Shown: piece by piece, positions 43,621 through 64,000 of the stretch
How positions within the stretch are numbered: position 1 is the first letter of the stretch
Layout of the letters: the number at the start of each line of letters is the position of its first letter
Assembly (NCBI RefSeq): GCF_964204865.1
Contig: NC_135256.1
Location: 19,220,001-19,284,000 of the forward strand
DNA length: 64,000 bases
Direction: 5' to 3'
Source: Styela clava
Lineage: Eukaryota
Made by a program: the position numbers and the translations under genes
The notes under the pieces: generated by a model
Told to the model about the DNA's origin: nothing
Databases searched by the model: none
Seen by the model: the letters and a program-made list of their open reading frames with translations, nothing else

Positions 43621-43908
43621 CCTTTACAGCTTTAAAAATCTCAATTCTATTCATCAAATGATAGCCTAGCTTGGATGGTTAAATATCGAGCCACTTTTCT
43701 ATTATGACTAGAATGAATTTGTAATCATAATGTTTTGACTCATTGGAACTTGTTAATGCCGCATTGTAAGTTAATATTATATGCAAATTTACATCACTGC
43801 ATGATATTGTAGTAATATATATTGAAACCTCATTGAAATCCTCAGTGCTTAAATCAATTCTTTGTACTCTTTAACTCTGCAGTTAGTATATAATATACAA
43901 ACTGCATA

Positions 43909-44400
43909 ATGCGCATTGAAAAATGTTACTTTTGTTCTTCTCCAATCTATCCTGGACATGGAATCTGTTTTGTACGAAATGATTGCAAAATGTTCAGGTT
44001 TTGTCGGTCAAAGTGTAAAAAGTCTTTTAAGAAAAAGAGAAATCCTAGAAAAGTCAGATGGACCAAAGCTTTTCGTAAGTCACACAACAAGGAACTTACT
44101 ACTGATGCTTCACTTGAGTTTGAAAAGAGAAAAAATTGTCCAGTCAAGTACGACAGGGAATTATGGGAAAAGAGCATCAAGGCAATGAAACGGGTTGAAG
44201 AAATAAAAACAAAGAGACAAAATCAATTTATAATGAATAGACTGAAGGTTGGCAAGCAGCTTATGAAAGAAGCTGATTTCCGTGAGGTTAAACAAAATAT
44301 CAATCTGATCAAATCACCAGCTGCTACCACAAAACAAAAAGAAGAGGCGATGCTGGAAATTATCACTGAACCAGATGAGGAAATGCTGGAATGTAATTGA
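43909..44400 (+). CDS. RSL24D1: Probable ribosome biogenesis protein RLP24 (RSL24D1), 163 aa, intronless CDS
   Basis: [57 protein letters not shown] is the RLP24 signature; full-length uninterrupted ORF. Confidence 0.97.
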
Positions 44401-46185: not shown

Positions 46186-46782
46186 TTAACTATGTACACT
46201 GTCAAAGTTTGTGCTCCCTTTAATCTTGTATTCAATGATTTCAAGGAGCTCATCAACCCTTGGTATTCTTCCAGATTGCAATTTTGACCAAACAGTTACA
46301 TCATTGAGCACAATTTCAAAAGCTCCGGTAGATACCAGCTGAGTTTCAATTGCGTTGCATAAAAAAAATGTCATCATAGCAGCATAAACCATATTTTCAC
46401 GTGCCCACAAATAAAACTGTGGGGTGTCCATGCCCATATGAGGAAAAGGATTCAATCCAGTAAGAATACAACCAATAAAAATAAATTTGAAAATTGAGAT
46501 AGCAGATGCAATAGCTTGATAGGCTTTGGGAGGAGGGTAATTTGATGCCTCAATCTTGATGTCTGAGTAACGCTGTGAAATTATTTGCGCATATTCCTCA
46601 GATGCACGGCGATACCCTCAAGAGACACATACCAAAAACTTCAAAACTGGGGTTGTAAATTTTGTTTTAAGTCCACGTACAGGTGTGTCTTCCACGCTGC
46701 TTGCTTCGACTTCCGAAAGATCCATCCAAGTTATGGCAGTAACTAATATAACAACACTACCAATGAGAGCAAGACGCCCCAT
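46186..46782 (-). CDS. SELENOT: Selenoprotein T (thioredoxin-like Rdx family), 198 aa with Sec at codon 55, intronless CDS
   Basis: ATG at 46782; signal peptide; LKFLVCVS-TGA(46620-46618)-GYRRASEEYAQIISQRYSDIKIEASNYPP, then ..IETQLVSTGAFEIVLNDVTVWSKLQSGRIP. CxxU motif plus downstream SECIS. The ORF track shows only the C-terminal part. Confidence 0.96.
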
Positions 46783-49780
46783 CTCCAACCTGTTGCAAAA
46801 CTTCGTAGAACTTCCTAGTCAGATTATCTATTTATGATAAACAATCGAGTATCTAAAATAAGAGTTGTCAAGATAACGCTTTTAATGGGGAAAAAGCCGG
46901 TAAGATCATATGGCGTATCTTGGTCCCTGCTTCCATGTCAGGTACGCGATAAGTTGGCCAGTTATTTGGTTAAGATGCATGGACTTGGTGGTATCCGGGA
47001 TACAATAATAATGAGAGAAAGTACGCTATATACCACTGTTAAGCCAGTAGGCTTATCGATTTTTGTACTTTTGATTGCTCTTGTATATATACTTCAAAAC
47101 TAAAATGATTCATTCCAACTTTCAAGAGCTTTTCAAAAACATAAGTGGTAAATCGAAATACTAAACTGCTTTATGCATGTTTTACTACTTATCAGTAACA
47201 ATTTGACAAACTGTAGTGTAAATCTTTGCCACATGAAGCATAAGCAATGCTACAGTTGAATCAATATTGATCAAGATACAGTACCAAGATAACTACAGGA
47301 TTAAACATACTGACATACCATCTAAAAAATCAATGCAGAGACTCCATGTTCAATTGGAATTTTTCAACCTCCCAGTAGACCACTCAAGTGAGTATTTTAA
47401 GAAACATACATCATTATTAGGATCTGGTATAAGTAGGCTACTTCTAGTAGGCAAAACTCAAACAACCCCACGCAGCCACGCTGCATGTGCAGATAAGGCA
47501 TATAATTCACAATTATTAGTGCTTCTGTTCACTCGGATTATAGTTTATTCGATTTTATCTCAATACAAATTATCCAATAATCAGATGATAGAAAATTACC
47601 CACGCAAATTTCAAGTGATTTCTCTATTAGCAGATTATGATAGATAAGAATGAAAAAACATTTGAAAAATTCCTAAACCAGTACGATACCGGTACTGTAC
47701 TAGGTCTATTCTGCTCTCCCTACTATCTTGGTCGTTAGTGAAATCTATTAGCAAAAACTGGATATAAACTTAAACTACACTGACTGGTCATTATGACACA
47801 AACAGACAAATGTTTCCTACATCCTGACATCTGTCACTTCTTTGAGCAGATAAGGTGAAAGAAATAACCAACACGTTCAGGTATCGAAAGCAAATTATTA
47901 TTAAGTTATGGCGCTTTTCTCTACTGGGATTATGTGCGCCAGTCTGGGGCAACCCTAAAATGCGGGAAACGGGAACTACGGGAAATGCACTAAAATGCGG
48001 GAACTGCGGGAACGACGGGAAATTGCAAAAACTAAAATGCGGGAACTACGGGAATGACGGGAACTACGGGAAATTTCACTAAAAAGCGGGAAATTTCACG
48101 AAAAGCGGGAATGACGGGAAATCGCTTTAAGGTACGGGAAATATTCATTTTGGGGTATGTTTAGGGGAAATTGTTCTAGAAAACGAAAGAAATGGTTAAT
48201 ATGCGCTTGGGGGTGTATGTACGTGAAAATTTATCTAAAATGCGGGAACGACGGCAAATCGCGTTAAAGTACGGGAAATACTCATTTCAGAGTATGTTTA
48301 GAAGAAATTGCACTAGAAAATGGAAGCAACGGGAAATATACGCTTGGGTTGTGTGGATACGGAAATTTCACTAAAAGATTCTAATAATATTCGGATTCGG
48401 ATAATATGTATTCGGATAGTATGTATGTTAGTACAATTACCCCGTACATGCACACTCAAGTATAAACGGCACTCCGAAAGTATGTGCAACAAAATGACGC
48501 ACAATCTGAACTCTAACCTGGTATACATACTATGTTCAGGTTGTGCGTCATCTTGTTGCACATACTTCGGGAGCGACGTATAAACTTGCCGTTGCTTTTG
48601 CTATTCAATGCAAAATTGCCCCACACATACTCTAAAATACTTATTTCCCATACCCTAAAGCAAATTCCCGTCATTCCCGTCTTTTGTGAAATTTCCCGTA
48701 GTTCCGGCAATTTCAAATAGACAAATTCCCGTCGTTCCCACAGTTCCCGCTTTTTAGTGCATTTCCCGGCGTTCCCGCAGTTCCCGCATTTTAGGGCCCT
48801 AAAATGCGGGAAACGGGAATGACGGGAAACGTTAATAACAAGCGAGAAAATGTTACAAAAAACGGGAATGACGGAAAATCGCTCGAAGATAAAGGAAATA
48901 CGTATTATAGTACGATTACTACGTACATGCACATTTAAGAATAAACGGGACTTCGGAAGTATTTGCAACAAAATGGCGCACAACCTGAGCTTTAACCTGG
49001 TACACATACTTGGTTCAGTTGTGCGCCATCTTGATGAACATACTCGGGAGCACTGTATAAACTTGCCGTTACTTTCGCCCTTCAGTGAAAATTTACCTCA
49101 CACATCCTCTAAAATACATATTTCCCATACCCTAAAGTAAATTCCCGTCATTCCCGTCTTTTGTGAAATTTCCCGTAGTTCCCGCAATTTCAAATTGACA
49201 AATTCCCGTCGTTCCCGCAGTTCCCGTTTTTTAGTGCATTTCCCGTCGTTCCCGTTTCCCGCATTTTAGGGCCCTAATGACGGGAAAATTTACTAATAAG
49301 CGGGAGAATGTTACGAAATGCGGGAAAGAGGGGGAAATTGCTCTCAGATAGGGAAAATATGCATTTTAGAGTGTATGTAGAGGGAATTTCACTAAATAGC
49401 GGGGAATTTCACACAAAGTGGGAATGACGGGAAATAGCTCTAAGATTGAGGAAATGGGCATTTTATTGTGTATGTACGGGAAATTGTACTAGAAGGCGAG
49501 AGCAACGGGAAATATACACTTGAGTGTGTAGGTACAAGAAATTGTATTGAAAAGCGGAAATTACGGAAAATATTACTCATGAGTAGGAACTATGTGATAT
49601 TTTGGGAAATTTCACTGAAAATTGGGTGGGTATAAGGGAAATTCTCTAGATAAGCGGCGATGACGGGAACAACGGTAATTGATGGCGATGACGGCAATGA
49701 AAAGCGAACGTATTGACAAATGACGGGGAGAGTCGGAAGAGTAAGAGCATCGCGTAAAAATAAAATAATATGTAATTAGC

Positions 49781-51213: not shown

Positions 51214-54200
51214 TTATATTTAATTTAGGGTAGGGCGATAGGGTAAAGGAATATATTGGTTACCAAGATAAGGTTTTTTTAATTTTTAGATATTGACTTC
51301 TGCAAGGATAACGGAATTAGGATTGTTACTTAACAGGATCATTTCTTCATTAAGTTATTATGACGCAATTGATGTCAATTCAAATTTATCGTGGATGAGA
51401 CATCAGCGAATTTTGTTGATGTAGACACCATTTATATTCAATAAGCTAGCCAATGAATTGATCATCACGAAACGACCTGAAAAACGGAAAATAAATCTGC
51501 GAGTAATAGAATATTAAGGGTTACATATTAGGAAACAACACTACCCTATCTACACTTTTGTTGAGAAGAAATTATTATTTTGAGTAGATATTGATCATTA
51601 ATTATTTATCTTTAAAACGCTAGTTGAAAGGCATGAGTTGAATTCTGGTTGGGATACGGGGTAAATTTCTCGCAAACCATACAAAAACTCTCAAACCAAA
51701 CTAACCATTTGCATGTTTCGTGAACTTTAACCACTTCTAATAGTCATATTTTACTGTGAACTTATCAGCGTAAACTTGGAGGGAGCTGACTCCGATGACT
51801 GCATGATCGTATCACTCCTTCCAGTCTATACCGAATAAAGTGTATTTTTTCTTTAGCCATTATTTATTGTTATGAATGCTTTCTCTGGTGCGCGAAATAA
51901 AATCTCTCTCTCTCTGTTGGCCTTCACGTTCATTTCACAGCAGAACCTTAACCTAGAATAAAATTTTGTATACACACAAGACAAATCATAGAATACCACA
52001 ACAAATTAAAACCAAGGGGATAATCCAATATATCTCTACTGGTCGCCTAATTACAATAGGAGGTACAGGAGCTAAACTATACCGTCTACAACCCTCATAA
52101 GGTATTACACCGCCCAAATAGAAACAAAGACCATGCATGTGTGATGTTAAAAGTTGGTTCATCGGTTGATTCGTTTGAAAAAGGGATTATTGATAGCAAG
52201 CCGGGGAACGTCCGGTTTTCAGTAAATCGTTCAAGAATATAGCACATTGACGTTGACAAAGTCGTAAGAATTTATGTATCACTGCAAATGTCGCCAAATT
52301 GCATTTCAAAAAATGTTGAAAGTTTTGGGAAGGGCCCATGGAATTTCGTTTCATCGCATATAGTTGCATCATTGATTTAAGTGTATTTCACTATCTGTTG
52401 TTCGGAACAATTCAATTCGATCGTACAACTTTACACTATATGAAAATTTTACATTACAATCCATTGCGTTTCTATTTGATCTCTGAGGGTATTCGGTTAA
52501 TTCCACTAAAATACCTTTAAAGAGAATCAGAAGGAAGATTCAGATTATAGGGAGCATTAAACCTATACTTGCATAAGACAATATTGGGCAACACCCTTCA
52601 CACAAATAAAACAGCACTGAAATGATGCTAAGTTAACAGGAAATATCAATTCACTGAATAACAAAAATCTACAAGTAACACTCGTAATAAATTACGTAAA
52701 ACAATGGAAGATGGTTTAGATCGCCAGTTAAAAAACAGCTAAATACATATTATTTATTTTTTACGCGATGCTCTTACTCTTCCGACTCTCCCCGTCATTT
52801 GTCAATACGTTCGCTTTTCATTGCCGTCATCGCCATCAATTACCGTTGTTCCCGTCATCGCCGCTTATTTAGAGAATTTCCCTTATACCCACTTGATTTT
52901 CAGTAAAATTTCCCAAAATATCACATAGTTCCTACTCATGAGTAATATTTTCCGTAATTTCCGCATTTTAATACAATTTCTTGTACCTACACATTCAAGT
53001 GTATATTTCCCGTTGCTCTCGCCTTCTAGTACAATTTCCCGTACATACACAATAAAATGCCCATTTCCCCCATCTTAGAGCAATTTCCCGTCATTCCCAC
53101 TTTGTGTGAAATTCCCCGCTATTAAGTGAAATTTCCCCTACATACACTCTAAAATGCATATTTTCCCCATCTTGGAGCAATTTTCCCTCTTTCCCGCATT
53201 TCGTAACATTCTCCCGCTTATTAGTAAATTTCCCCGTTTCCCGCATTTTAGGGCCCTGAATGTATAGGCCCTAATATGTATTTTAGAGTATGTGTGGGTT
53301 AAATTTTCACTCAAGGACGAAAGCAACGGCAAGTTTATACAGTGCTCCCAAGTATGTTCATCAAGATGGCGCACAACCTGAACCAAGTATGTGTACCAGG
53401 TTAAAGCTCAAGTTGTGCGCCATTTTGTTGCAAATACTTCCGAAGTCCCGTTTATTCTTAAGTGTGCATGTACGTAGTAATCGTACTATAATACATATTT
53501 CCTTTATCTTCGAGCGATTTTCCGTCATTCCCGCTTTCTGTAACATTTTCCCGCTTGTTATTAACTTTTCCCGTCATTCCCGTTTCCCGCATTTTAGGGC
53601 CCTAAAATGCGGGAACTGCGGGAACGACGGGAAATGCACTAAAAAGCGGGAACTGCGGGAACGACGGGAATTTGTCAATTTGAAATTGCGGGAACTACGG
53701 GAAATTTCACAAAAGACGGGAATGACGGGTATTTGCTTTAGGGTATGGGAAATGTGTATTTTAGAGTATGTGTGGGGTAAATATGCATTGAATAGCAAAA
53801 GCAACGGCAAGTTTTTAGGGCGCTCCCAAAGTATGTGCAACAAGATGACGCACAACCTGAACATAGTATGTATACCAGGTTAGAGTTCAAGTTGTGCGTC
53901 ATCTTGTTGCACATACTTCCGGAGTGCCGTTTATACTTGAGTGTGCATGTACGGGGTAATTGTACTAACATACATATTATCCAAATACATATTATCCGAA
54001 TCCGAATATTATTAGTCTATTAATCTTTTAGTGAAATTTCCGTATCCACACAACCCAAGCGTATCCTATTGCTTCCGTTTTCTAGTGCAATTTCTTCTAA
54101 ACATACTCTGAAATGAGTATTTCCCGTACTTTAACGCGATTTGCCGTCGTTCCCGCATTTTAGATAAATTTTCACGTACATACACCCCCAAGCGTATATA

Positions 54201-54989
54201 CACCATTGCTTTCGCTTTCTAGAACAATTTCCCCTAAACATACTCCAAAATGAATATTTCCCGTACCTTAAAGCGATTTCCCGTCATTCCCGCTTTTTGT
54301 TAAATTTCCCGCTTTTTAGTGAAATTTCCCGTAGTTCCCGTCATTCCCGTAGTTCCCGCATTTTAGTTTTTGCAATTTCCCGTCGTTCCCGCAGTTCCCG
54401 CATTTTAGTGCATTTCCCGTAGTTCCCGTCGTTCCCGTTTCCCGCATTTTAGGGTTGCCCGCCAGTCTGAAAATAATTTTCTATACAATACTGCAATACG
54501 GTACATGTCCTGAGGTCCACACCACATAGCAAAAAAAAAAACAGAGAGAAATCAGAGGTGGCCTTGTCATGATAATCATCATGATGACATCATTAAGCTT
54601 CATAAAATATTCTAAGCTTTAGAAAATGTACCGGTTTAGAAAACGACTGAACGTTGTCACCGGACTGCCAGACAAAGCGCTCTGCTGTTTTGTAACAATC
54701 ATCATTATTTCGGGCAAATGAGTCAGCGTTTCACGTGATCTTTACTACAACTCAACTTGGACTGAATGTTTTGGGGCTATTTTTTTCTAATTAACTCTGT
54801 TCAAAATCGGCATAGTCCTGTAGTCGGGATTTGAATAGACAAAATGGTCTGCGGCAGTGATTTCCTTCACCCCCCCCTAAAATTTTAAACACCCCCCCTA
54901 ATTTTGAGGAGCGATTCAACACTGTAATTCCGAACTCAAGTATACTTGTAAATAAATATATAGGATATGGCATAATTATCAGTGTAGAT

Positions 54990-55450: not shown

Positions 55451-56591
55451 TGCAAGTTCAGCAAGTAACTTCATTAGTCACTATTACCGGTAGTTGCAAA
55501 TTTATTGTTGAAAGTCGTGCTGGTTATTTATTTCTCGGGTATTCTATAACCTAACTATTATATTTATTGATTTTATTACATAACAAACTGCGATGCTAGG
55601 CGTATCTAAAATCAATCTTGCAGCCTGTTTTAGTGCCTATATTTCAATTTTTCTCCGGCCGCTTGAGCGCGCCCTGAACCCCAGCCGTGCCGTCGCGATC
55701 TTTTTGCCGCTCCCTTTTCTGGCCCATGATTATTCTTCTGCTTCCATTTTTGGTCCGAGATCAATCAACTTTCAACCTAAATTTCAACTCCCCCCCCCCC
55801 CTAAAGTGAAAAGCTGGGGAACATACCAGTCCTCGGGACGCCGGGCACGTACCTTATTTCATATGACATGATGACAATAACACGAATTTTTTATTTGACC
55901 TATTCGATAACAATAAATCTCTCCCACGTGTTTTAAATGATTAATAATCTAAGTTTTGCTGTTATTTTGAATAAAAATGTGTTATAATGGATATCGGTTT
56001 TCATATTTAGGATATTTGAAAATCTCGTAATTCTCTACTTTGTAATAAATTTTTGATAAATGAAAATATAAGACATCCCCCGAAAAAAAGCTCTAGTGTT
56101 ATTTGTCAAAAAGAAATTCAAATGAGACACTTTCTCATTTTCAGCGAAACACGGTAATCGTCTTCAGCAAACGCTTTTCGATTTCATTTCATACCTGTTG
56201 CTAAAATGTGCAGCTATTTCGTCGACTGCCGACAGTTGACAATTTCGTGATTTTTTTCAATCATAGTAATAATCCGTCATACAATTTTTGTTTGTTTTCC
56301 GATAGGTCATATCGGCCAATCGCTTTGTTGAGATTCATGGGGTGAAACTGAGTCAGAGTATTTATTTACGGTCATAGCTTTATAAGATTACGCATCAGAT
56401 CATGCTGGCCTTTATCGCAGAAACTGATCGAAGCTGAGGATATCATGAACAGACAAACATCAGAAGTAACGATATTTGATGATGGATTACATGAAAAGGA
56501 CTGCTTACACATGGATTTTGATTAAAACTCTGGAGTTGGAGCGCCAGGGCGTAGAATGCTTTTGTCATATTTCACTTCGTTTGTTGTTATT

Positions 56592-56853
56592 GAACACGTC
56601 AGTGGACATAACGATCGTTTCAATATTATGTTGTTCTTGTTCTTTGACACGTTTTTTAAAAGTCGCTTTTCTCTTTGATTACTGGACCGATCGCTTTGAA
56701 ATTTTCAGTAGTTAAAGATTGATTTTTTGCCAGAAGGCTATTACTTTTACTTATTCAATTTCTGTGGACTTCAAGAGATACGTTTATTATGTGTCAGAAT
56801 AAAAAATAGCGACACCTTGTGACGTGTCCATATATTTGAGCATAGCTTTCTTG
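56592..56853 (+). mobile_element. Short HINE copy
   Basis: tt|gaacacgtcagtggacata..gacgtgtccatatatttgagcatagctttcttg|tt: subterminal inverted repeat, terminal hairpin, TT flanks. Confidence 0.78.
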
Positions 56854-56952
56854 TTAACTTTTACGCTGCTTTTATTATTGCTGTTTATCGTCCAGTAGAC
56901 TATTAGTGTGTTAGTTGAGTGCGTTCTTAATCACATTAATTATCACATAGTA

Positions 56953-57265
56953 TAGGATTTAAATATTTATCCCGGGGGAGAAGGAAGACGATAAGACGGC
57001 TTACCCATATTACAAACCACGGTCTCTCGTCCGGTTGCCATTCCATGTCGGATATGGGATTAGTTAGTTATTTGTTTTCGGAAGCATGGACTTGATGGTG
57101 GAGGAAGCCGTAACCGACCAGCGGTTACGTGAACCAGCTTACGGCGCCAAGGGAGTCCAGCAATCCTCTCGCACATAACCATCCCCGCATGGGATTCGAA
57201 TTTGCGAACCCACGCAGCGTAATCAGAGGTGCGGTGGCGAGCGTATTTCTAACGCTTAGCAAGAC
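56953..57265 (-). mobile_element. Near full-length tRNA-derived SINE
   Basis: Reverse complement of the whole SINE body, including the B-box region gggattcgaa and the tail taggatttaaatatttatcccggggg. Confidence 0.82.
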
Positions 57266-58604
57266 CGCTTTTTTGTTTGTTATATTCTACACGTCTCGTT
57301 ATTTTCTTGTACGGATATAGTAGAAACTGTAGTCTATAATTATAGCCCGAATTATCTTTTGGGTATTTTTTTTACTTCAACTGTGTTGTTTGCTGTTTTG
57401 GGTAAGTGGGCAAGTGCATCAGCACGTCTTAAATCTTTTTTAGATGTTGCCCACTTTCCTGATTTTCCGTATATTTGTTTGTAATTGCCATGTAATGTTT
57501 TGTCGTATCGGGAAATCGAAATAAATACTTACTTACGTGTAAAAATGTCGGTTACTGATTTAAAAATTATTTACGGATTTCGAAAAAGATTGGTAAAGTT
57601 GACTCGAAACTGGCTTATGGAGCAAATTACCTTGTCCATTAAATATGGATTCTGTTTTCAAATATATTTACAATGAACTTTTGCTCCCCCAGAGAAAATT
57701 TTATGCGATCTACTAGATTGGTACGGTGGCGCATCTATGATCTGCTAATCCGTTGTTGTAGTGGAGCTTGACAACGAAAGTTTCATTGCAAATTGCATTA
57801 AAATCTTATTTCATAGGCTATATATATATATGCATATTAAATGCGCCGCTAAACGATATTTTTATTTTTCCTCATTATCACCCCGAACTACTTAAAATCT
57901 TTGTTGTTTTCATTTTACACATACATACCTACTAAACCGCAATAATCTGTTCCAAATCTCGTGAGACTGCGCATTCGGAACCACTGACTACGGCTACGCT
58001 GCATTGGTGTGTGAATAATTTGGTGATATTAATCAATGGGTATAATTAATACATCGTACGTACACGCTGAAACAAGTGTGCAGTCAGTCATTAATATCTT
58101 TCAACCTCTATCCGGCAGGAAACAATGAATCATGTCCTATCTGCGCGCGTGAGAACAGCAAAAAGTGCCGATAACCACTAAGTATAACTGTTGTTACATA
58201 CTGGATTCCTACGTTTGGGATCAATTTGGAATCTTTGGAATGAAAACCCTTAATTCCAAATGCTTATAAATCCGACATTGAATCTAATTTCAGAACTATG
58301 GTCACAGAACTGTGACCGTGTCAAGCCGAAAAGAGTTGGAGACCGTATGAAAACGAAAACAAATACAATATGTTAAACTAATATATAAACCGATGGATCT
58401 GCCTAAATGGACTACGGAAGTTTCAAGAGAAATACAAACAAGTAACCAGAACTAACAGTTGGGGTTACGTGAAACTAACTACCTTTCCTTGCCCTATGCC
58501 TTTGCGCAGATGGATCCGTATGCGTATAACGCAAGATGCTATAGCAAGAGTGAAAATAACTATTCATTTCAAGAGTCTTGCTGCACACTTACACAAATAT
58601 ATTT

Positions 58605-58646
58605 CTGTAACGTTTCGTCTGACCGGGGTCAGACCTCTTCAGACAA
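58605..58646 (-). ncRNA. Minimal type I hammerhead ribozyme motif (Penelope-like retroelement type)
   Basis: Minus strand reads TTGT-CTGAAGA-G-GTCTGAC-CCCG-GTCAGAC-GAAAC-GTT-ACAG: CUGANGA and GAAA cores, perfect stem II, palindromic AACGTT stem III, short stem I (TTGT/ACAG). Confidence 0.75.
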
Positions 58647-58800
58647 GCATTTTACAACTATCAAAATCAGACTAAAATGCTTGTCTGAAGAACAATCAGA
58701 CTGCAACAATCAGACTGCCTTCTAATTTTGGTATTTTCATGTAGCAAGTATGCCTGTTCCAGTGTTTGTTTGTTTTGTATTCTCTCCAATCACTTGTAAT

Positions 58801-58987
58801 CAGTAGTGGGATTCAGCTCGTTCGCACCGGTCCTATAGAACCGTCTTACGGAATTTTATGGGATCAGCGAACCGGTCAGCATTACTGGTTACTGTCAATG
58901 ATTTTTTGTAATAGAACCGGGTGAAAAATATGACTTTTGTGATGGAACCGGGCAACCGGTTGACAAAAAAATTGAATCTCATCACTG
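58801..58987. mobile_element. Short hAT-type MITE
   Basis: TIR cagtagtgggattca / tgaatctcatcactg, internal gaaccgg repeats, TSD cttgtaat / cttttaat. Confidence 0.75.
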
Positions 58988-59230
58988 CTTTTAATTATTA
59001 TCCAAGTAAGTTGACATGACTGTAACGCCATTGCGACCGATACACCTTGTACTTTGTCGTGTTTTTTTCAACTTATGCGCGTGCCTCAATTTTCTATCGT
59101 ACGAAACGCCCGACAAGCTTCTTACTGTTGCTCATCGAGTCATTGTATAAATACTGTTATGTGTGTTATTTTGGTGCGTTACACGTTATAATCTTTATTT
59201 TTAAGTTTACTCGTTTTTCAGGCAGTTCTG

Positions 59231-59265
<35 letters not shown>

Positions 59266-61183
59266 GTTTGATTCATTGTGGGTTGTGTTTTTAGAATGCC
59301 GAAATAAATGGTCTTGTTTTCTTGATTAGCCCACTACCAGCCCCAGCACTAACTTTATGAACGTCAGATATCATCCTACAAGAGCCTAAAATCAATCAGG
59401 TACGAATTCAAATGAATTGTTATCTTAGTTGTTACATGCTCGTTCATACACGAATATGCAAAGTAATGTAAAATTACTAAAATATTGTACTTAAAATAAT
59501 TAATATTCAAGACAACGGCAGTCGCACAATATTAATACATAAGTTACAGTAAATACAATAAGGTTATAATTGAAACTGCAAACAAATAATAATTTGTAGA
59601 GCGAAAAAAAACGATATATATATGCAAAAAATATAATTCACACCATATCGGTTATAAAAGTATATGTACATCAAAATCCATCAAGCAAACTTGGCTTTGT
59701 CGCCTAGTTCATCTTAAGTTCTTTATTAGAAATAAAATTGAAAATATAAGTCATGTAATATTGAATTGGGGTGCTCTGGAGCAGTGGTTTACAACCTTTT
59801 TTTTTTATATCTCGGCACACTATTGAGAACTTTGGATATCCAGATTATTCCTGTAAATACAACATACCCTCTATTTGGTACCAGGTATATATTATTAATG
59901 GGAAATGTCAGTAGGAATGCTATGCCTGGTGCTTTTTTACTACGCTGCAAGTTGTCGACAAATGTAAGGGAGACATACTCATAATTCTCTGAGTGAGACA
60001 CGCTCCTAACGCGGGGTGCGGCCCCCAAAATTTCTTCTATATATATTTAAACACATTGTATTTGTATTTTTTCACATTGTATTTAACACACATTGTACAC
60101 ATTATATTATTATATTACATTGCATCCGCTTTACAAAATTATCATTCCCGAAAATTGCGATAGTCGAGCACGAACAAACGATTAATTAATAATGTACACG
60201 AGAGCGCCTTCAGGGCACTTCAAATTATTGTAAAAGATGCGCGGCCGCACGGGTAATACGTGTTCTCCAAACGCACCGCCGATCACGCGCTTCGGTTTTG
60301 CTCACCCTTCCACGTTACGCCCTTATTATTGTCGCAAGTATTCTCACTTTTGCACAACCTAATTCTTTTTTGTTACAATTTGATATGTCTCTCTCATTGC
60401 CAAAATCATTCAATAGTGTTATTGTCGGCACTTACAAAAGAAATGAAAACGGCAAATAAACTGTATTTCAATACAACAGTTAATTATTATCGATAAAAAC
60501 ACTAAATGGGTAAAACCGCTCGGCGTATCTTTTCGCGTTATGAATTTCGAATTGATGGCAATGATTATAGGATTTACTATGTCGAAACGCTTATTCGGGT
60601 TTTCAGACCGCCTGAAACTATTCGAAAACTGTAACCGTTTTTGTGTTCGAGATATGAAATAATCGTCAATTCCATCACGGTTTCGTGAAATAATGCAATT
60701 TACTAAATTTAATGAAAGTTTTATCAAGTTTCATTGCATCAATGTTTGGACTACCATGCACGCGTTTTGCCAGATTACTGGCGTGATTACATATCGCAAG
60801 GGAGGGCAAAATACAATATTTTTATCAAATCGAATATTTTAAACGAATTGTCGAATATTGTTATTTTTAGCATATATATTTATATATACGGTATATATAT
60901 ACAACAGGCACCCAGAACGCTAGACACTCCAATGTTGGTAAGCTATTTCCACCCAACCTATTTTTTACAAGGACCAATTATTACAAAACGGCGAACGTCG
61001 AAGTTTGGCTTTATATTCCTGGAAGAACTATATATGAGTTCTTATCGGCGACATATGATAAAGACAGCTAATAAGGACTGAATTCGGGAATTTGTTCGGA
61101 GTTTTATCTTTTGCGTCGGCTTTAATCTTTCTCACCACTGTGTGTAAATTACCTGTCTCAAGTTTAAGCTAACAATATTATCA

Positions 61184-64000
61184 TTTTTTTTTTTTTCATT
61201 TATGCAGATCAGAATTTTTCCAGAAGCTCGGATCAGTGTCTTAAAGACACGTCATATCCGAAGTCATATCGGTATAACGCTTCATAAGCATGCCACTGCG
61301 TAAGCAGCAGTCGTATACTTATGGAGGCTTCAGTATTTGCTGCGCCACTGCAAAACACAAACTTCCACCCCGGGGTTCGGCATATGCTGTATGTCACAGC
61401 ATTGCTTTATTCCGGGGCTTCCGTCTATGCCACGCAGAGCGCAATACAACTTCTGCCACCCCCGGCTTCCGTACATATTGTGCGAACTTACAACATAGCA
61501 TGACATCCACCGTGAAGCTTCCGAAGCTTGGATCAATTCTGGCACCCCGAAGCGCAATATTCACTGGGGACCACATCCGCTAAGTGGGAGATGGTATTTC
61601 TTAGTGTTTAAAAGGGCTAAAAAATTGCAATATGGGGTCTGCAATTATGCTACTGTTCGTGGTGGTTCGAGATTTTTTATTCTACAAGTTAGTTAGGTTC
61701 TTTTGTGGGAGTAGATCATGTGGTAGAGTATCCATTAAGGATCTCCTTCCAATTTGTCTTCACTCCTAGGAATTCGATGTTCTCAAACTTCTTCTCCATT
61801 AAGAGGAGGAAATCGAAAAATTTCGTTTTGATGGTTTGTGATAAATTTTGGTCGGTGGGGGATGCAAATGTGTTTCCTATATCGAGAGTTATTTTTCTAT
61901 TTATGATGGTCTTTTTTAGGATGGCGTAGCATTTTATCACCGCTGTTTCATTTGGTCCTTTATAACTGTTGTATAGGATCTGGTCTTTGGAAATTGAAAT
62001 TGGGGTGCTCAGAATGTCGTTGAGAAATTTATTAGTGTCCATAATATATTTGGCTATAGGATTACAATGTAAAAGTAGATGTTTCGTGTTGTCTCGGGGG
62101 GCTCTGCAGAATTTGCAATTCAGAATTTTAAGTTCGCCAGTTGGACCAAATCTAAGGCTCGTGCCGCGCATTCGATCACCGAAAAAATAGCCGTCTCTAG
62201 CTATGCGGTAGGAGACTATCCGTTCCGTATTTGTTACAAACCTGGAGGTGTTTCCCAGCAGAAGTACATCCTCCCAGATGATGTTATCTTGGGGTTGAGT
62301 ATGGTGTTTGCTCTTCAGTTTTGCGTATATATTTTTATGTCTGGCAGCCTGCCATTCTTCTGTCTAGATTTTCATGACGTCCTTCCAGTATTCTGTTAAG
62401 GTTGGAGCGTGGGGCATAGAATTGTTGTACAGGTCCTTATTTATCTCTTTAACCCTTGAGCCCAGAGAATACTTCAAGAATACTAGTGCTTCAATGTGCC
62501 AGAATTGATCCAAATTTTCGCCTTTCACCAAAGCTTTCAGTTTCTCTACCCGGCAAGCTGCCATTTTTTCTTTGATGTTTAACATGTTTATACCACCTCC
62601 GTCTCGTGTTAGTTGTAGATTTGCCCCGCTGATGGCTTCTATTTTGTTAGGATGCCATAGAAATTTAAATATCTCGCTGTTTATATCTTTTGAAGTTTTT
62701 GGGGAAATAGGTTTCACCTTGGCTTGGAACATGATTATTGACATAATTAAGGAGTTTATCATAATTTGCTTGCCAAACCACGTTAGTTTACGGAATTTTA
62801 TGTAGTTCAAAATTCTGGTTAGTTTTATTTGTATTTCCTCCCATGTTTTATATAGGGGTTTTTGTCCAAAATTCATTCCAAGTACCTTCACGTCTTTCAT
62901 AATATATCGGCTGTAGGGAGATTGATAAATCGAATTATATGATGATTTGGTAATACACAGGATTTGGGTTTTTTCTCTGTTAATTTTTTGTTCGGAAGCT
63001 AATTCGAAATTGTGAAATTCGTAGAAAATTTCAGTGATGGAAGATTGGTTTGAAACTGTGAGGGTTATATCATCTGCATATTGATCGAGTTTGTGCTCCT
63101 GTTTTGTCAGTTTTATTCCACGTATGTTCTGATTCAGCTGAAGTGACCTAGCTAAAGGTTCAGCGCTTAGTGCATATAGGAGCATGCTTAGTAGGCAGCC
63201 CTGTTTTATTCCGCGTCTAATCTCAATTTCCTGAGTTAACTTCCCGTTTACATCAATACAGCTTTTGTTATCGAGGTACATGTTTTTGATAACGTTCGAA
63301 AGCCGATTCCCGATCCCTATTTTGTCCAGTATGTCAAAAAGAAAGTTGTGATTAACATTGTCAAATGCCTTCAAATTGTCAATAAGTATTATCGTTGCGG
63401 GTATATTTTTTATTTTACAGTATCTGATTATTGCGTCCGTATTATAATGTATGTCCGACATGTTTCTTTGTGGTACTGCGCATTTTTGAGTAGGGCCAAT
63501 TATATGAGCTAGAGCGGGTTCCAATCGTTTGACAAGTATTTTCAATATAGTTTTATAGTCCATATTTAGTGTGGATATGGGACGCCAATTCTTCAGTTCT
63601 GTTTCATTACCTTTTTTATATAGAAGTTTGACTTTTGCTAGTTTTGAAGATTTTGGAAATTGTCCAAATGTCATAATATTGTTTACCAATTGCGTAAATT
63701 GCGGTTTTATTGTGTGCCAAAAGGTTACGTAGAACTCTCTACTTAGTCCATCCATGCCGGGCGACTTATTGTTTTTCATGAATTTTATAGCGGTATATAC
63801 TTCTTCAGCCGTTACGCGTTGTTCTAGGGCGTCTTTCTCTAGCTCTGGTATTGTGATTGAACGCATGAGGGAGAGATAGTGGTCTTGATGTTCTTTGACA
63901 GTTTCACACGCAGATCCCCACAGGTTTCTATAGAATTCTTCAATAGTAGCCAGAACTTCCTTCTCACTTTGGACCATACAGTCGTTGCTATCTTTGACCC
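61184..64000 (-). mobile_element. L1/Tx1-type non-LTR retrotransposon, 3' part
   Basis: RT ORF, ~520-nt 3' UTR with short GC-rich repeats, and an A13 tail (T run at 61184-61196); continues beyond the window. Confidence 0.9.
61716..64000 (-). pseudogene. LINE ORF2 (reverse transcriptase + C-terminal zinc knuckle) with one in-frame TAG
   Basis: KSPGMDGLSREFY, WRPISTLNMDYK, KAFDNVNH, GIKQGCLLS, YADD, and CKFC..HLLLHC. ORFs 62364-63977 and 61716-62171 are in the same frame, joined by 64 open codons after the TAG at 62366-62364. Confidence 0.9.

What the first reader, a model, noticed from the sequence alone, without database searches (positions are those of the whole stretch)
58605..58691. Hammerhead ribozyme motif with an inverted partial twin
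Seen: a complete minimal hammerhead core on the minus strand (CUGAAGA, one extra G, 7-8 bp stem II, GAAAC-GUU). Its 5' flank plus core is repeated in inverted orientation as a perfect 19-bp repeat (58636-58654 / 58673-58691, taaaatgcttgtctgaaga). Established: Penelope-like retroelements carry such minimal type I hammerheads with palindromic stem III, thought to cleave as dimers, and often leave inverted terminal copies. Inference: a non-autonomous Penelope/retrozyme-like remnant. In a transcript the 19-bp hairpin would sequester the CUGAAGA core, a possible off-switch.
Basis: partly seen in the sequence, partly recalled or inferred. Interest (0 to 1): 0.7.

Follow-up and report, generated by a model that had tools for sequence, protein, structure and literature searches.

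The report
Penelope stub ending at RNA cap
This is a 212-base stub of a common Penelope-type jumping gene that carries the element's usual small hammerhead ribozyme motif; the mirror-image piece beside it is likely an insertion scar rather than an off-switch, and the stub's front edge with one extra G likely marks the capped start of the element's RNA.

Summary
In detail: a minimal type I hammerhead core (58642-58609, minus strand) and a perfect 19-bp inverted repeat. The motif lies in a 212-bp stub (58661-58450) of the terminal repeat (pLTR) of a Penelope-like retroelement. The same motif follows an RT/GIY-YIG frame in 28 of 30 protein-hit loci, 425 intact cores occur genome-wide, and a distant family shows compensatory changes in stems II and III. 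The off-switch is not supported: the short twin is private to this copy, inverted 5' neighbours occur at 44 of 98 sister copies, and such palindromes are in print. The copy also has a private A-to-G change predicted to misfold it. The by-catch is better: 5' ends pile up 15-20 nt before the core (14 of 98 and 32 of 99 copies, 3.3 expected each), often after a non-family G as here, 31 nt below a TATA-like box in three families, and not at the cleavage site. This likely marks copying of a capped, uncut sense RNA to its start. A fifth family did not show it and no RNA start data exist. The scan already noted this cap-G pattern in other genomes; I did not find it in print.

The parts
58450..58661 (-). 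212-bp stub of the pLTR of a Penelope-like element (family A here); runs from -19 to +199 of the family coordinates (0 = C3 of the ribozyme), with small private deletions
   Evidence: Homology to sister loci starts at 58661 and ends at 58450; 3' ends of sisters cluster at about +79-86 and +195-200
58605..58646 (-). Minimal type I hammerhead motif: stem I 58646-58643 with 58608-58605, core CUGAAGA 58642-58636, extra nucleotide 58635, stem II 58634-58617, GAAA 58616-58613, palindromic AACGUU 58614-58609; predicted cut after 58609
   Evidence: Sequence; pair counts across five families; architecture as in PMC4209133
58635..58635 (-). Private A-to-G change at the extra core nucleotide (a second private change, T-to-C, at 58626 in loop 2); predicted to favour a misfold
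   Evidence: 100 of 100 listed intact cores have A; 234 of 242 laid reads have the family letter; stem II probability 0.43 here against 0.83-0.94 in five sister copies
58661..58662 (-). 5' end of the stub (A at -19) preceded by a G that is not the family letter: inferred transcription start and copied cap guanosine
   Evidence: End pile-up; G before -19 in 9 of 11 family A matches; internal control 6 of 29
58673..58691 (+). 19-bp inverted copy of family positions -12 to +6 (the 'twin'), head to head with the stub; inferred junction scar
   Evidence: inverted 5' neighbours in sister copies
58663..58718 (.). Scrambled 5' junction: 14-bp tandem duplication (58691-58704, 58705-58718), 9 nt of which recur in the spacer (58665-58673); no clear target-site duplication with the 3' flank
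   Evidence: Read from the sequence; similar scrambled junctions in sister copies L117 and L121

Best explanation
The feature is a dead, solo stub of a Penelope-like retroelement's terminal repeat that carries the family's minimal hammerhead motif, and it was likely made when the element's reverse transcriptase started about 200 nt inside a capped, uncut sense RNA, ran off its 5' end adding a C opposite the cap, and the junction was then likely closed with a short fold-back copy (the 19-bp twin). SHOWN: element identity, boundaries, copy number, covariation, the pile-up of 5' ends at -20 to -15 in two samples, the G excess, and no pile-up at the cleavage site. INFERRED: that -19 is the transcription start; that the G is the copied cap; that +199 is an internal start of reverse transcription (by analogy with the in vitro result of PMC11167929); that the twin arose by self-priming or template jumping during insertion. 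In the parent element the ribozyme would sit 19 nt behind the cap in a 5' leader of about 250 nt, would need a second copy (or the element's protein) to cut, and would remove a 53-nt capped piece. This copy lacks the TATA-like box, a same-strand partner nearby and the family A at the extra position, so it most likely does nothing.
For: Family: 46 matches among 40 scored of 782 candidates; 974 exact hits of a 17-mer, control 0; 425 intact cores. Linkage: 28 of 30 loci of RT/EN hits have the motif some 340-760 nt past the protein match; RVT_1 and GIY-YIG in a 960-aa open frame of sister family B, GIY-YIG above cut-off in family A fragments. Structure: 89 of 91 cells paired, three pairs changed on both sides, including a CG-to-GC swap that keeps the stem III palindrome. 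Inversions: 44 of 98 (control 4) and 36 of 86 copies. 5' ends in -21..-14: 14 of 98 against 3.3 expected (p 1e-5), then 32 of 99 against 3.3 (p 7e-21) in family B with the window fixed beforehand. Cleavage site +32..+36: 5 against 5.0 and 4 against 3.2. G before -19: 6 of 8 B ends (read by eye), 2 of 2 in the C1 set against 16 of 96 at other ends, 9 of 11 in family A, 8 of 14 independent-looking B ends; control 6 of 29. 17 raw DNA reads of another sample have loose ends at the same place with a consensus ending in G. TATA-like box 31 nt upstream in A, C, D; pyrimidine-purine at -20/-19 in A and B. A near-full-length B copy begins at G + (-19) and ends at +198 of its second repeat (L214). Family B has no AG at -17/-16, so the pile-up is not a splice acceptor.
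Against: Family E (distant) shows no pile-up: 0 of 33 ends in -21..-14 and no TATA-like box at -50 (six of the 33 are long ORF-linked copies). Family B has the strongest pile-up but no TATA-like box at that distance. The ends spread over six positions, not one. Several Gs follow TTGTT and could be slippage copies of the element's own 5' end. The raw B count of 65 G in 100 is inflated: 16 of the first 30 loci are one insertion multiplied inside another repeat. Samples hold both halves of head-to-head pairs and some duplicates, so the p values are too small. Family B's -19 begins with ATT, the motif that a Penelope endonuclease prefers in vitro (PMC11167929). No RNA 5'-end data and no cleavage assay. 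The twin's outer end (+6) is not one of the two usual 3' ends, so its exact route is not settled.
Confidence: 0.72

Rival explanations
1. Ordinary random 5' truncation plus a DNA-level cut: the stub is the same dead pLTR fragment, but the pile-up at -19 reflects the element's endonuclease (or repair microhomology) acting on an AT-rich site in its own repeat, not an RNA cap.
For: PAc endonuclease cleaves its own pLTR at an ATT motif in vitro (PMC11167929); family B reads ATT at -19; ends are spread over -20..-15; family E lacks the pile-up.
Against: Does not explain a non-family G just before -19 and not before other ends, nor a TATA-like box 31 nt upstream in three families; family A reads ATA, not ATT.
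Confidence: 0.18
2. One reading: the 19-bp inverted arm is kept to sequester CUGAAGA and regulate self-cleavage of a host or element transcript.
For: With the arm, the core is predicted fully paired and the hammerhead fold costs 15-17 kcal/mol more than the best fold, against 3.4-3.6 without it.
Against: The arm and junction are private: upstream of -19 only two of 46 matches reach into it, through their own different inversions. A perfect 19-bp stem has no predicted second state. A transcript starting at -19 would not contain the arm. The monomer has no stem III, single motifs of this type did not cleave in vitro (PMC4209133), and the A-to-G change already predicts a misfold. Inverted 5' neighbours are routine.
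Confidence: 0.03
3. A non-autonomous retrozyme or SINE-like family: the -19..+199 unit is transcribed and multiplies on its own through circular RNA.
For: Many copies share both ends; a 360-bp three-unit tandem of the family B repeat exists (L228).
Against: The unit is identical to the end of autonomous elements, lacks the upstream TATA-like box, is a monomer here, and its ends are not set by the cleavage site.
Confidence: 0.07

Closest known systems
Minimal hammerheads (min-HHR) in the pLTRs of metazoan Penelope-like elements (Cervera and de la Pena 2014, PMC4209133; parts 1-2 of 4 of the text read, plus passages)
   Same: 7-8 bp helix II, 4-5 bp helix I, unpaired nucleotide before G10.1, G10.1-C11.1 pair, palindromic 15.2-16.2 without loop 3, mostly solo copies, some pairs on opposite strands
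   Different: This copy has G at the extra position where its family has A; the paper does not map 5' ends relative to the motif in the parts I read
Inverted pLTRs and 5' palindromes of EN+ Penelope elements (Arkhipova et al. 2013, PMC3846280, passages and Discussion read; Craig et al. 2021, PMC8557442, passages)
   Same: Head-to-head inverted 5'-truncated neighbour; 18-bp and 38-bp palindromes at pLTR 5' ends; about 200-bp pLTR; two alternative 3' ends; CX2-5CxxC linker of Neptune/Nematis type
   Different: The two 3' ends here lie about 110 nt apart, not 30-40; that paper favours self-priming on an antisense template, whereas the G excess here points to a capped sense template
PAc Poseidon element in vitro (Frangieh et al. 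2024, PMC11167929; parts 1-2 of 4 read)
   Same: Two internal starts of reverse transcription matching genomic 3' ends; uncut RNA is the main substrate; no ends at the ribozyme cut site
   Different: Other clade; there the ribozyme overlaps the start codon, here the main ATG of family B is at +232
Untemplated 5' G of full-length LINE-1 insertions, read as reverse transcription of the cap (PMC9341517, passages)
   Same: Single extra G at a 5'-complete junction next to a pyrimidine-purine start
   Different: Shown for L1 from a 3' poly(A) start; here inferred for short copies from an internal start
Non-LTR retrozymes (bioRxiv 10.64898/2026.07.22.740005; part 1 of 5 and passages read)
   Same: Type I hammerhead, non-coding, derived from PLE pLTRs
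   Different: Defined as tandem arrays of at least two units; this locus is a monomer

Membership tests
Minimal type I hammerhead of metazoan PLEs | Core CUGAnGA / GAAA / NUH | tested here: met
   CUGAAGA, GAAA, GUU
Minimal type I hammerhead of metazoan PLEs | 7-8 bp helix II with G10.1-C11.1 and one extra nucleotide; 4-5 bp helix I | tested here: met
   two helix II pairs change on both sides in family E
Minimal type I hammerhead of metazoan PLEs | Palindromic helix III without loop (dimer partner) | tested here: met
   AACGUU; self-duplex -5.5 kcal/mol; CG-to-GC swap keeps the palindrome in family E
Minimal type I hammerhead of metazoan PLEs | Self-cleavage as dimer or with protein | not testable with these tools
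   No assay; genomic 5' ends show no excess at the cut site
Rfam hammerhead families | Covariance-model hit | tested here: not met
   No hammerhead family among 9 matches at E<=10 in 56000-61000
EN+ Penelope-like element (fragment) | Single frame with RT and C-terminal GIY-YIG next to the repeat | tested here: met
   In sister copies, not in this stub; no intact family A frame was found among the hits
EN+ Penelope-like element (fragment) | pLTR in partial tandems, inverted 5' neighbour, two 3' ends | tested here: met
Neptune/Nematis-type PLE | CX2-5CxxC linker between RT and EN | tested here: met
   C-x4-C-x2-C in the L023 translation; motif definition from PMC8557442
Neptune/Nematis-type PLE | Phylogenetic placement in Neptune or Nematis | not tested
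   No reference set, no tree
Non-LTR retrozyme | Tandem array of two or more ribozyme-bearing units | tested here: not met
   One core in the whole window
Non-LTR retrozyme | Circular RNA | not testable with these tools
   No RNA holder on record
Regulatory RNA switch | Conserved sequestering arm with two accessible states | tested here: not met
   Arm private to this copy; one predicted state

The most novel reading that the evidence does not exclude
The short pLTR stubs are 5'-complete run-off cDNAs: Penelope-like elements copy a capped, ribozyme-uncut SENSE RNA whose start lies 19 nt before the hammerhead, and the head-to-head palindromes form at the cap end of the cDNA. The genome thus records the transcription start of the element, answers the sense-or-antisense template question left open in PMC3846280, and makes the hammerhead a cap-removing device that is idle on the RNAs that get copied.
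Probability: 0.6. Interest if true: 0.55.

Novelty: new member of a known kind. Interest (0 to 1): 0.3.

Why it matters
The locus itself is ordinary: one of hundreds of dead pLTR stubs. Its value is as a fossil of the copying step. How Penelope-like elements replicate, whether from a sense or an antisense template (left open in PMC3846280), and what their hammerheads do in cells (called unclear in PMC8557442) are open questions. A pile-up of 5' ends with an extra G just before the ribozyme, and none at its cut site, gives a sharp, cheap prediction: capped starts at -19 and uncut templates. The scan has seen the same pattern in several other genomes, so this is a further replicate, with one family that fails to show it.

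Tried and rejected
Rfam scan: no hammerhead hit. Splice-acceptor explanation of the 5' pile-up: families A, C, D and E have a pyrimidine tract and AG 15-16 nt before the core, but family B lacks the AG and has the strongest pile-up, ends are not sharp at -15, and no shared upstream exon or leader precedes them. Ribozyme cleavage as source of 5' ends: no excess at +32..+36. Target-site duplication for this copy: none recognised. Empty-site allele: no joint skipping the stub in four laid runs, but unique flanks were thinly covered. Expression: no RNA holder listed; contigs of runs only guessed to be RNA cannot show starts or strand, so nothing is concluded from them. The Fisher tests printed (41:13, 65:13) were set aside because duplicated loci inflate them. 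Sigma-70 promoter scan does not apply to a eukaryote. Replication in family E failed. The primary paper on the extra nucleotide (PubMed 11454858) is not held; its result is taken from a review passage (PMC3705267). PMC1636495 had no passage on GUU. Look-up of earlier findings by sequence gave nothing. No supplements were opened; alignments in the supplements of PMC4209133 and PMC11167929 could bear on whether the 5' pile-up is already described.

Full report
Observation. The minus strand from 58646 to 58605 reads TTGT-CTGAAGA-G-GTCTGAC-CCCG-GTCAGAC-GAAAC-GTT-ACAG. It is the only hammerhead descriptor hit in the window and none arose in 60 simulated 64-kb sequences. The 19-bp arms are perfect and 18 nt apart. 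A contig of a public run covers 58637-58876 without a difference (it may be the window's own sample). Rfam gave no hammerhead family at E<=10 in 56000-61000. Below, positions are counted from C3 of the core (58642 = 0).

What it belongs to. A search of the own genome (377 Mb) gave 46 matches from 40 scored of 782 candidates. Homology runs from 58661 (-19) to 58450 (+199). A 17-mer from the part 3' of the ribozyme has 974 exact hits, control 0; a pattern for the intact core has 425. Three of the first 30 loci carry RT or GIY-YIG coding sequence upstream on the same strand. Searching with that protein gave 118 matches, with open frames of 940-977 aa in sister families; one holds RVT_1 and GIY-YIG. 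In 28 of the 30 loci fetched, the ribozyme follows the protein match. They fall into four close families (A, to which the window copy belongs, B, C, D) and a distant one (E). The linker has C-x4-C-x2-C, the Neptune/Nematis mark named in PMC8557442 (passages); I built no tree. No intact family A frame was among the hits. So the stub is the pLTR end of an EN+ Penelope-like element.

Is the motif a real ribozyme motif? On seven sequences from five families, 89 of 91 cells pair and three pairs change on both sides: two in stem II and the C-G of stem III, which becomes G-C and keeps the palindrome. All three come from family E, so they are three events on one branch. The architecture is that of the min-HHRs of PMC4209133 (parts 1-2 read), where single motifs did not cleave and dimers cleaved weakly. 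This copy has two private changes. All 100 listed intact cores have A at the extra position and 234 of 242 laid reads show the family letter at 58635. Stem II has a predicted probability of 0.43 here against 0.83-0.94 in five sisters. A review states that A-to-G at this position was strongly detrimental in a viroid hammerhead (PMC3705267, passage; the primary paper is not held).

The twin. It is an inverted copy of -12..+6, head to head with the stub. Folding confirms that it would bury the core: 15-17 kcal/mol against 3.4-3.6 without it. But it is not shared: only two of 46 matches extend into it, through their own inversions. In 98 of the 100 places listed on contig C1 (two lay in earlier loci and were left out), 44 have an inverted element piece within 40 nt of the 5' end, against 4 in a reversed-sequence control; in family B 36 of 86. 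Both halves of a pair are counted. Most of these partners are longer and end at one of the usual 3' ends; short ones like this are the minority (L002, L248). Palindromes of 18 and 38 bp at pLTR 5' ends are described in PMC3846280 (passages and Discussion) and inverted 5' neighbours in PMC8557442. The junction here also holds a 14-bp duplication, part of which recurs in the spacer, like the scrambled junctions of L117 and L121. I read the twin as a one-off scar.

Where copies end. 3' ends cluster at about +79-86 and +195-200, as expected for two internal starts of reverse transcription (shown in vitro for another clade, PMC11167929, parts 1-2 read); the main ATG of family B is at +232. 5' ends were mapped in samples anchored 3' of the cut site, so not chosen for their 5' ends. 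In the C1 sample 14 of 98 lie in -21..-14 against 3.3 expected (p 1e-5, best of 109 windows). With that window fixed, family B gave 32 of 99 against 3.3 (99 copies from the 100 listed of 256 places; 13 ends at -342/-346 are a reference artefact of long copies; a few near-duplicates remain). At the cut site there is no excess: 5 against 5.0 and 4 against 3.2. Family E did not replicate: 0 of 33.

The extra G. The window copy has G before -19, where the family has T or C. So do 6 of 8 B copies ending at -19 (by eye; a script that recovered six of them gave 4 G) and 2 of 2 in the C1 set, against 16 of 96 and 12 of 47 at other ends. Genome-wide, family A has 9 G and 2 A (the Gs include this copy and one head-to-head pair, the As are one duplicate), against 6 G of 29 at an internal control position. 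For B, 65 of 100 listed are G by my count, but 16 of the first 30 loci are one insertion multiplied in another repeat; collapsed, they give 8 G, 3 A, 3 T. Some Gs follow TTGTT and may be slippage. Raw DNA reads of another sample show 17 loose ends at this place with a consensus ending in G. A TATA-like box lies 31 nt upstream of -19 in A, C and D, not in B or E. One near-full-length B copy starts at G + (-19) and ends at +198 of its second repeat (L214). An untemplated 5' G is read as copying of the cap in LINE-1 (PMC9341517, passages). The Drosophila Penelope promoter lies in the pLTR and needs the partial tandem (PMC2377424, passages and Discussion).

Mechanism. Inferred: in a partial tandem the upstream repeat drives a capped RNA from -19; the ribozyme sits in its first 55 nt and again near its 3' end. 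The protein primes at +86 or +199. From the 3' copy it gives long or randomly cut insertions; from the 5' copy it runs into the cap after about 105 or 220 nt and gives stubs like this one. The free cDNA end then folds back or jumps, leaving the inverted piece. The templates were uncut, in line with the in vitro result of PMC11167929. This copy has no TATA-like box and no same-strand partner in the window and is predicted to misfold, so it is likely inert. The main rival for the pile-up is a DNA cut by the element's endonuclease at its own AT-rich site.

Novelty. The motif, its host element and the inversion are known kinds. The cap-G reading I did not find in print in three searches, which cover only the open library and no supplements. 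I wrote it down before looking up earlier notes; one search then showed eight unreviewed notes of this scan with the same reading in other genomes, and one note from this genome that calls a similar fold-back ordinary and names the host a sea squirt (not checked by me). They are not independent proof. Expression could not be judged. Verdict: real, ordinary locus; off-switch rejected; a useful further replicate of a testable idea about Penelope replication, with one family against.

Noticed in passing
window 58793-58993: A second, unrelated high-copy repeat lies about 75 bp from the junction (hit in L024; deep read pile).
   Followed up: no
window 61716-64000, minus strand: LINE-type RT frame (RVT_1, E 4e-30) continued by a frameshifted C-terminal frame with a weak zf-RVT hit.
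   Followed up: partly
window 43894-44400 (+) and 46186-46617 (-): Long uninterrupted frames for a Ribosomal_L24e-family protein and an Rdx-family protein; intron-less genes or retrocopies. The Rdx frame starts right after a stop, which may be a selenocysteine codon (recalled, not tested).
   Followed up: partly
window 48513-49140 and 53287-53883; 54026-54455: Two similar stretches on opposite strands about 4 kb apart, with short TTCCCG-rich tandem repeats next to them: a possible large fold-back element.
   Followed up: no
L228:3570-4662 (G000 C3, about 14.33 Mb): 360-bp tandem of the family B repeat with three intact hammerheads, a retrozyme-like array in which dimers could form.
   Followed up: no
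L200:1571-1670: Two family A hammerhead cores in direct tandem only 65 nt apart.
   Followed up: no
L191, L195, L197, L203, L206, L207 (family E): Hammerhead variant with U in place of C3 while G8 is kept, and a GC instead of CG palindrome; five of six copies have a mismatch at the loop end of stem II. Four copies share a break at -89 with similar upstream sequence, probably a subfamily difference.
   Followed up: partly
window 58650-58639 (minus) and families C, D: A three-codon upstream frame (ATG at -8) ends at the UGA of the ribozyme core in families A, C and D; B has CTG, E lacks it.
   Followed up: no
Families A, C, D, E, positions -30..-16: A pyrimidine tract with AG, like a 3' splice site, precedes stem I; absent in B. 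Penelope of Drosophila has an intron ending at helix I (PMC4209133).
   Followed up: partly
L275, L276, L280-L293: One short family B stub sits inside another repeat that has been multiplied at least 16 times on C3 and C4.
   Followed up: no
L158:6369-6417: A 47-nt skip with GT..AG ends in one contig of a run guessed to be RNA; one extra letter at the joint, so a deleted genomic copy is as likely as an intron.
   Followed up: no
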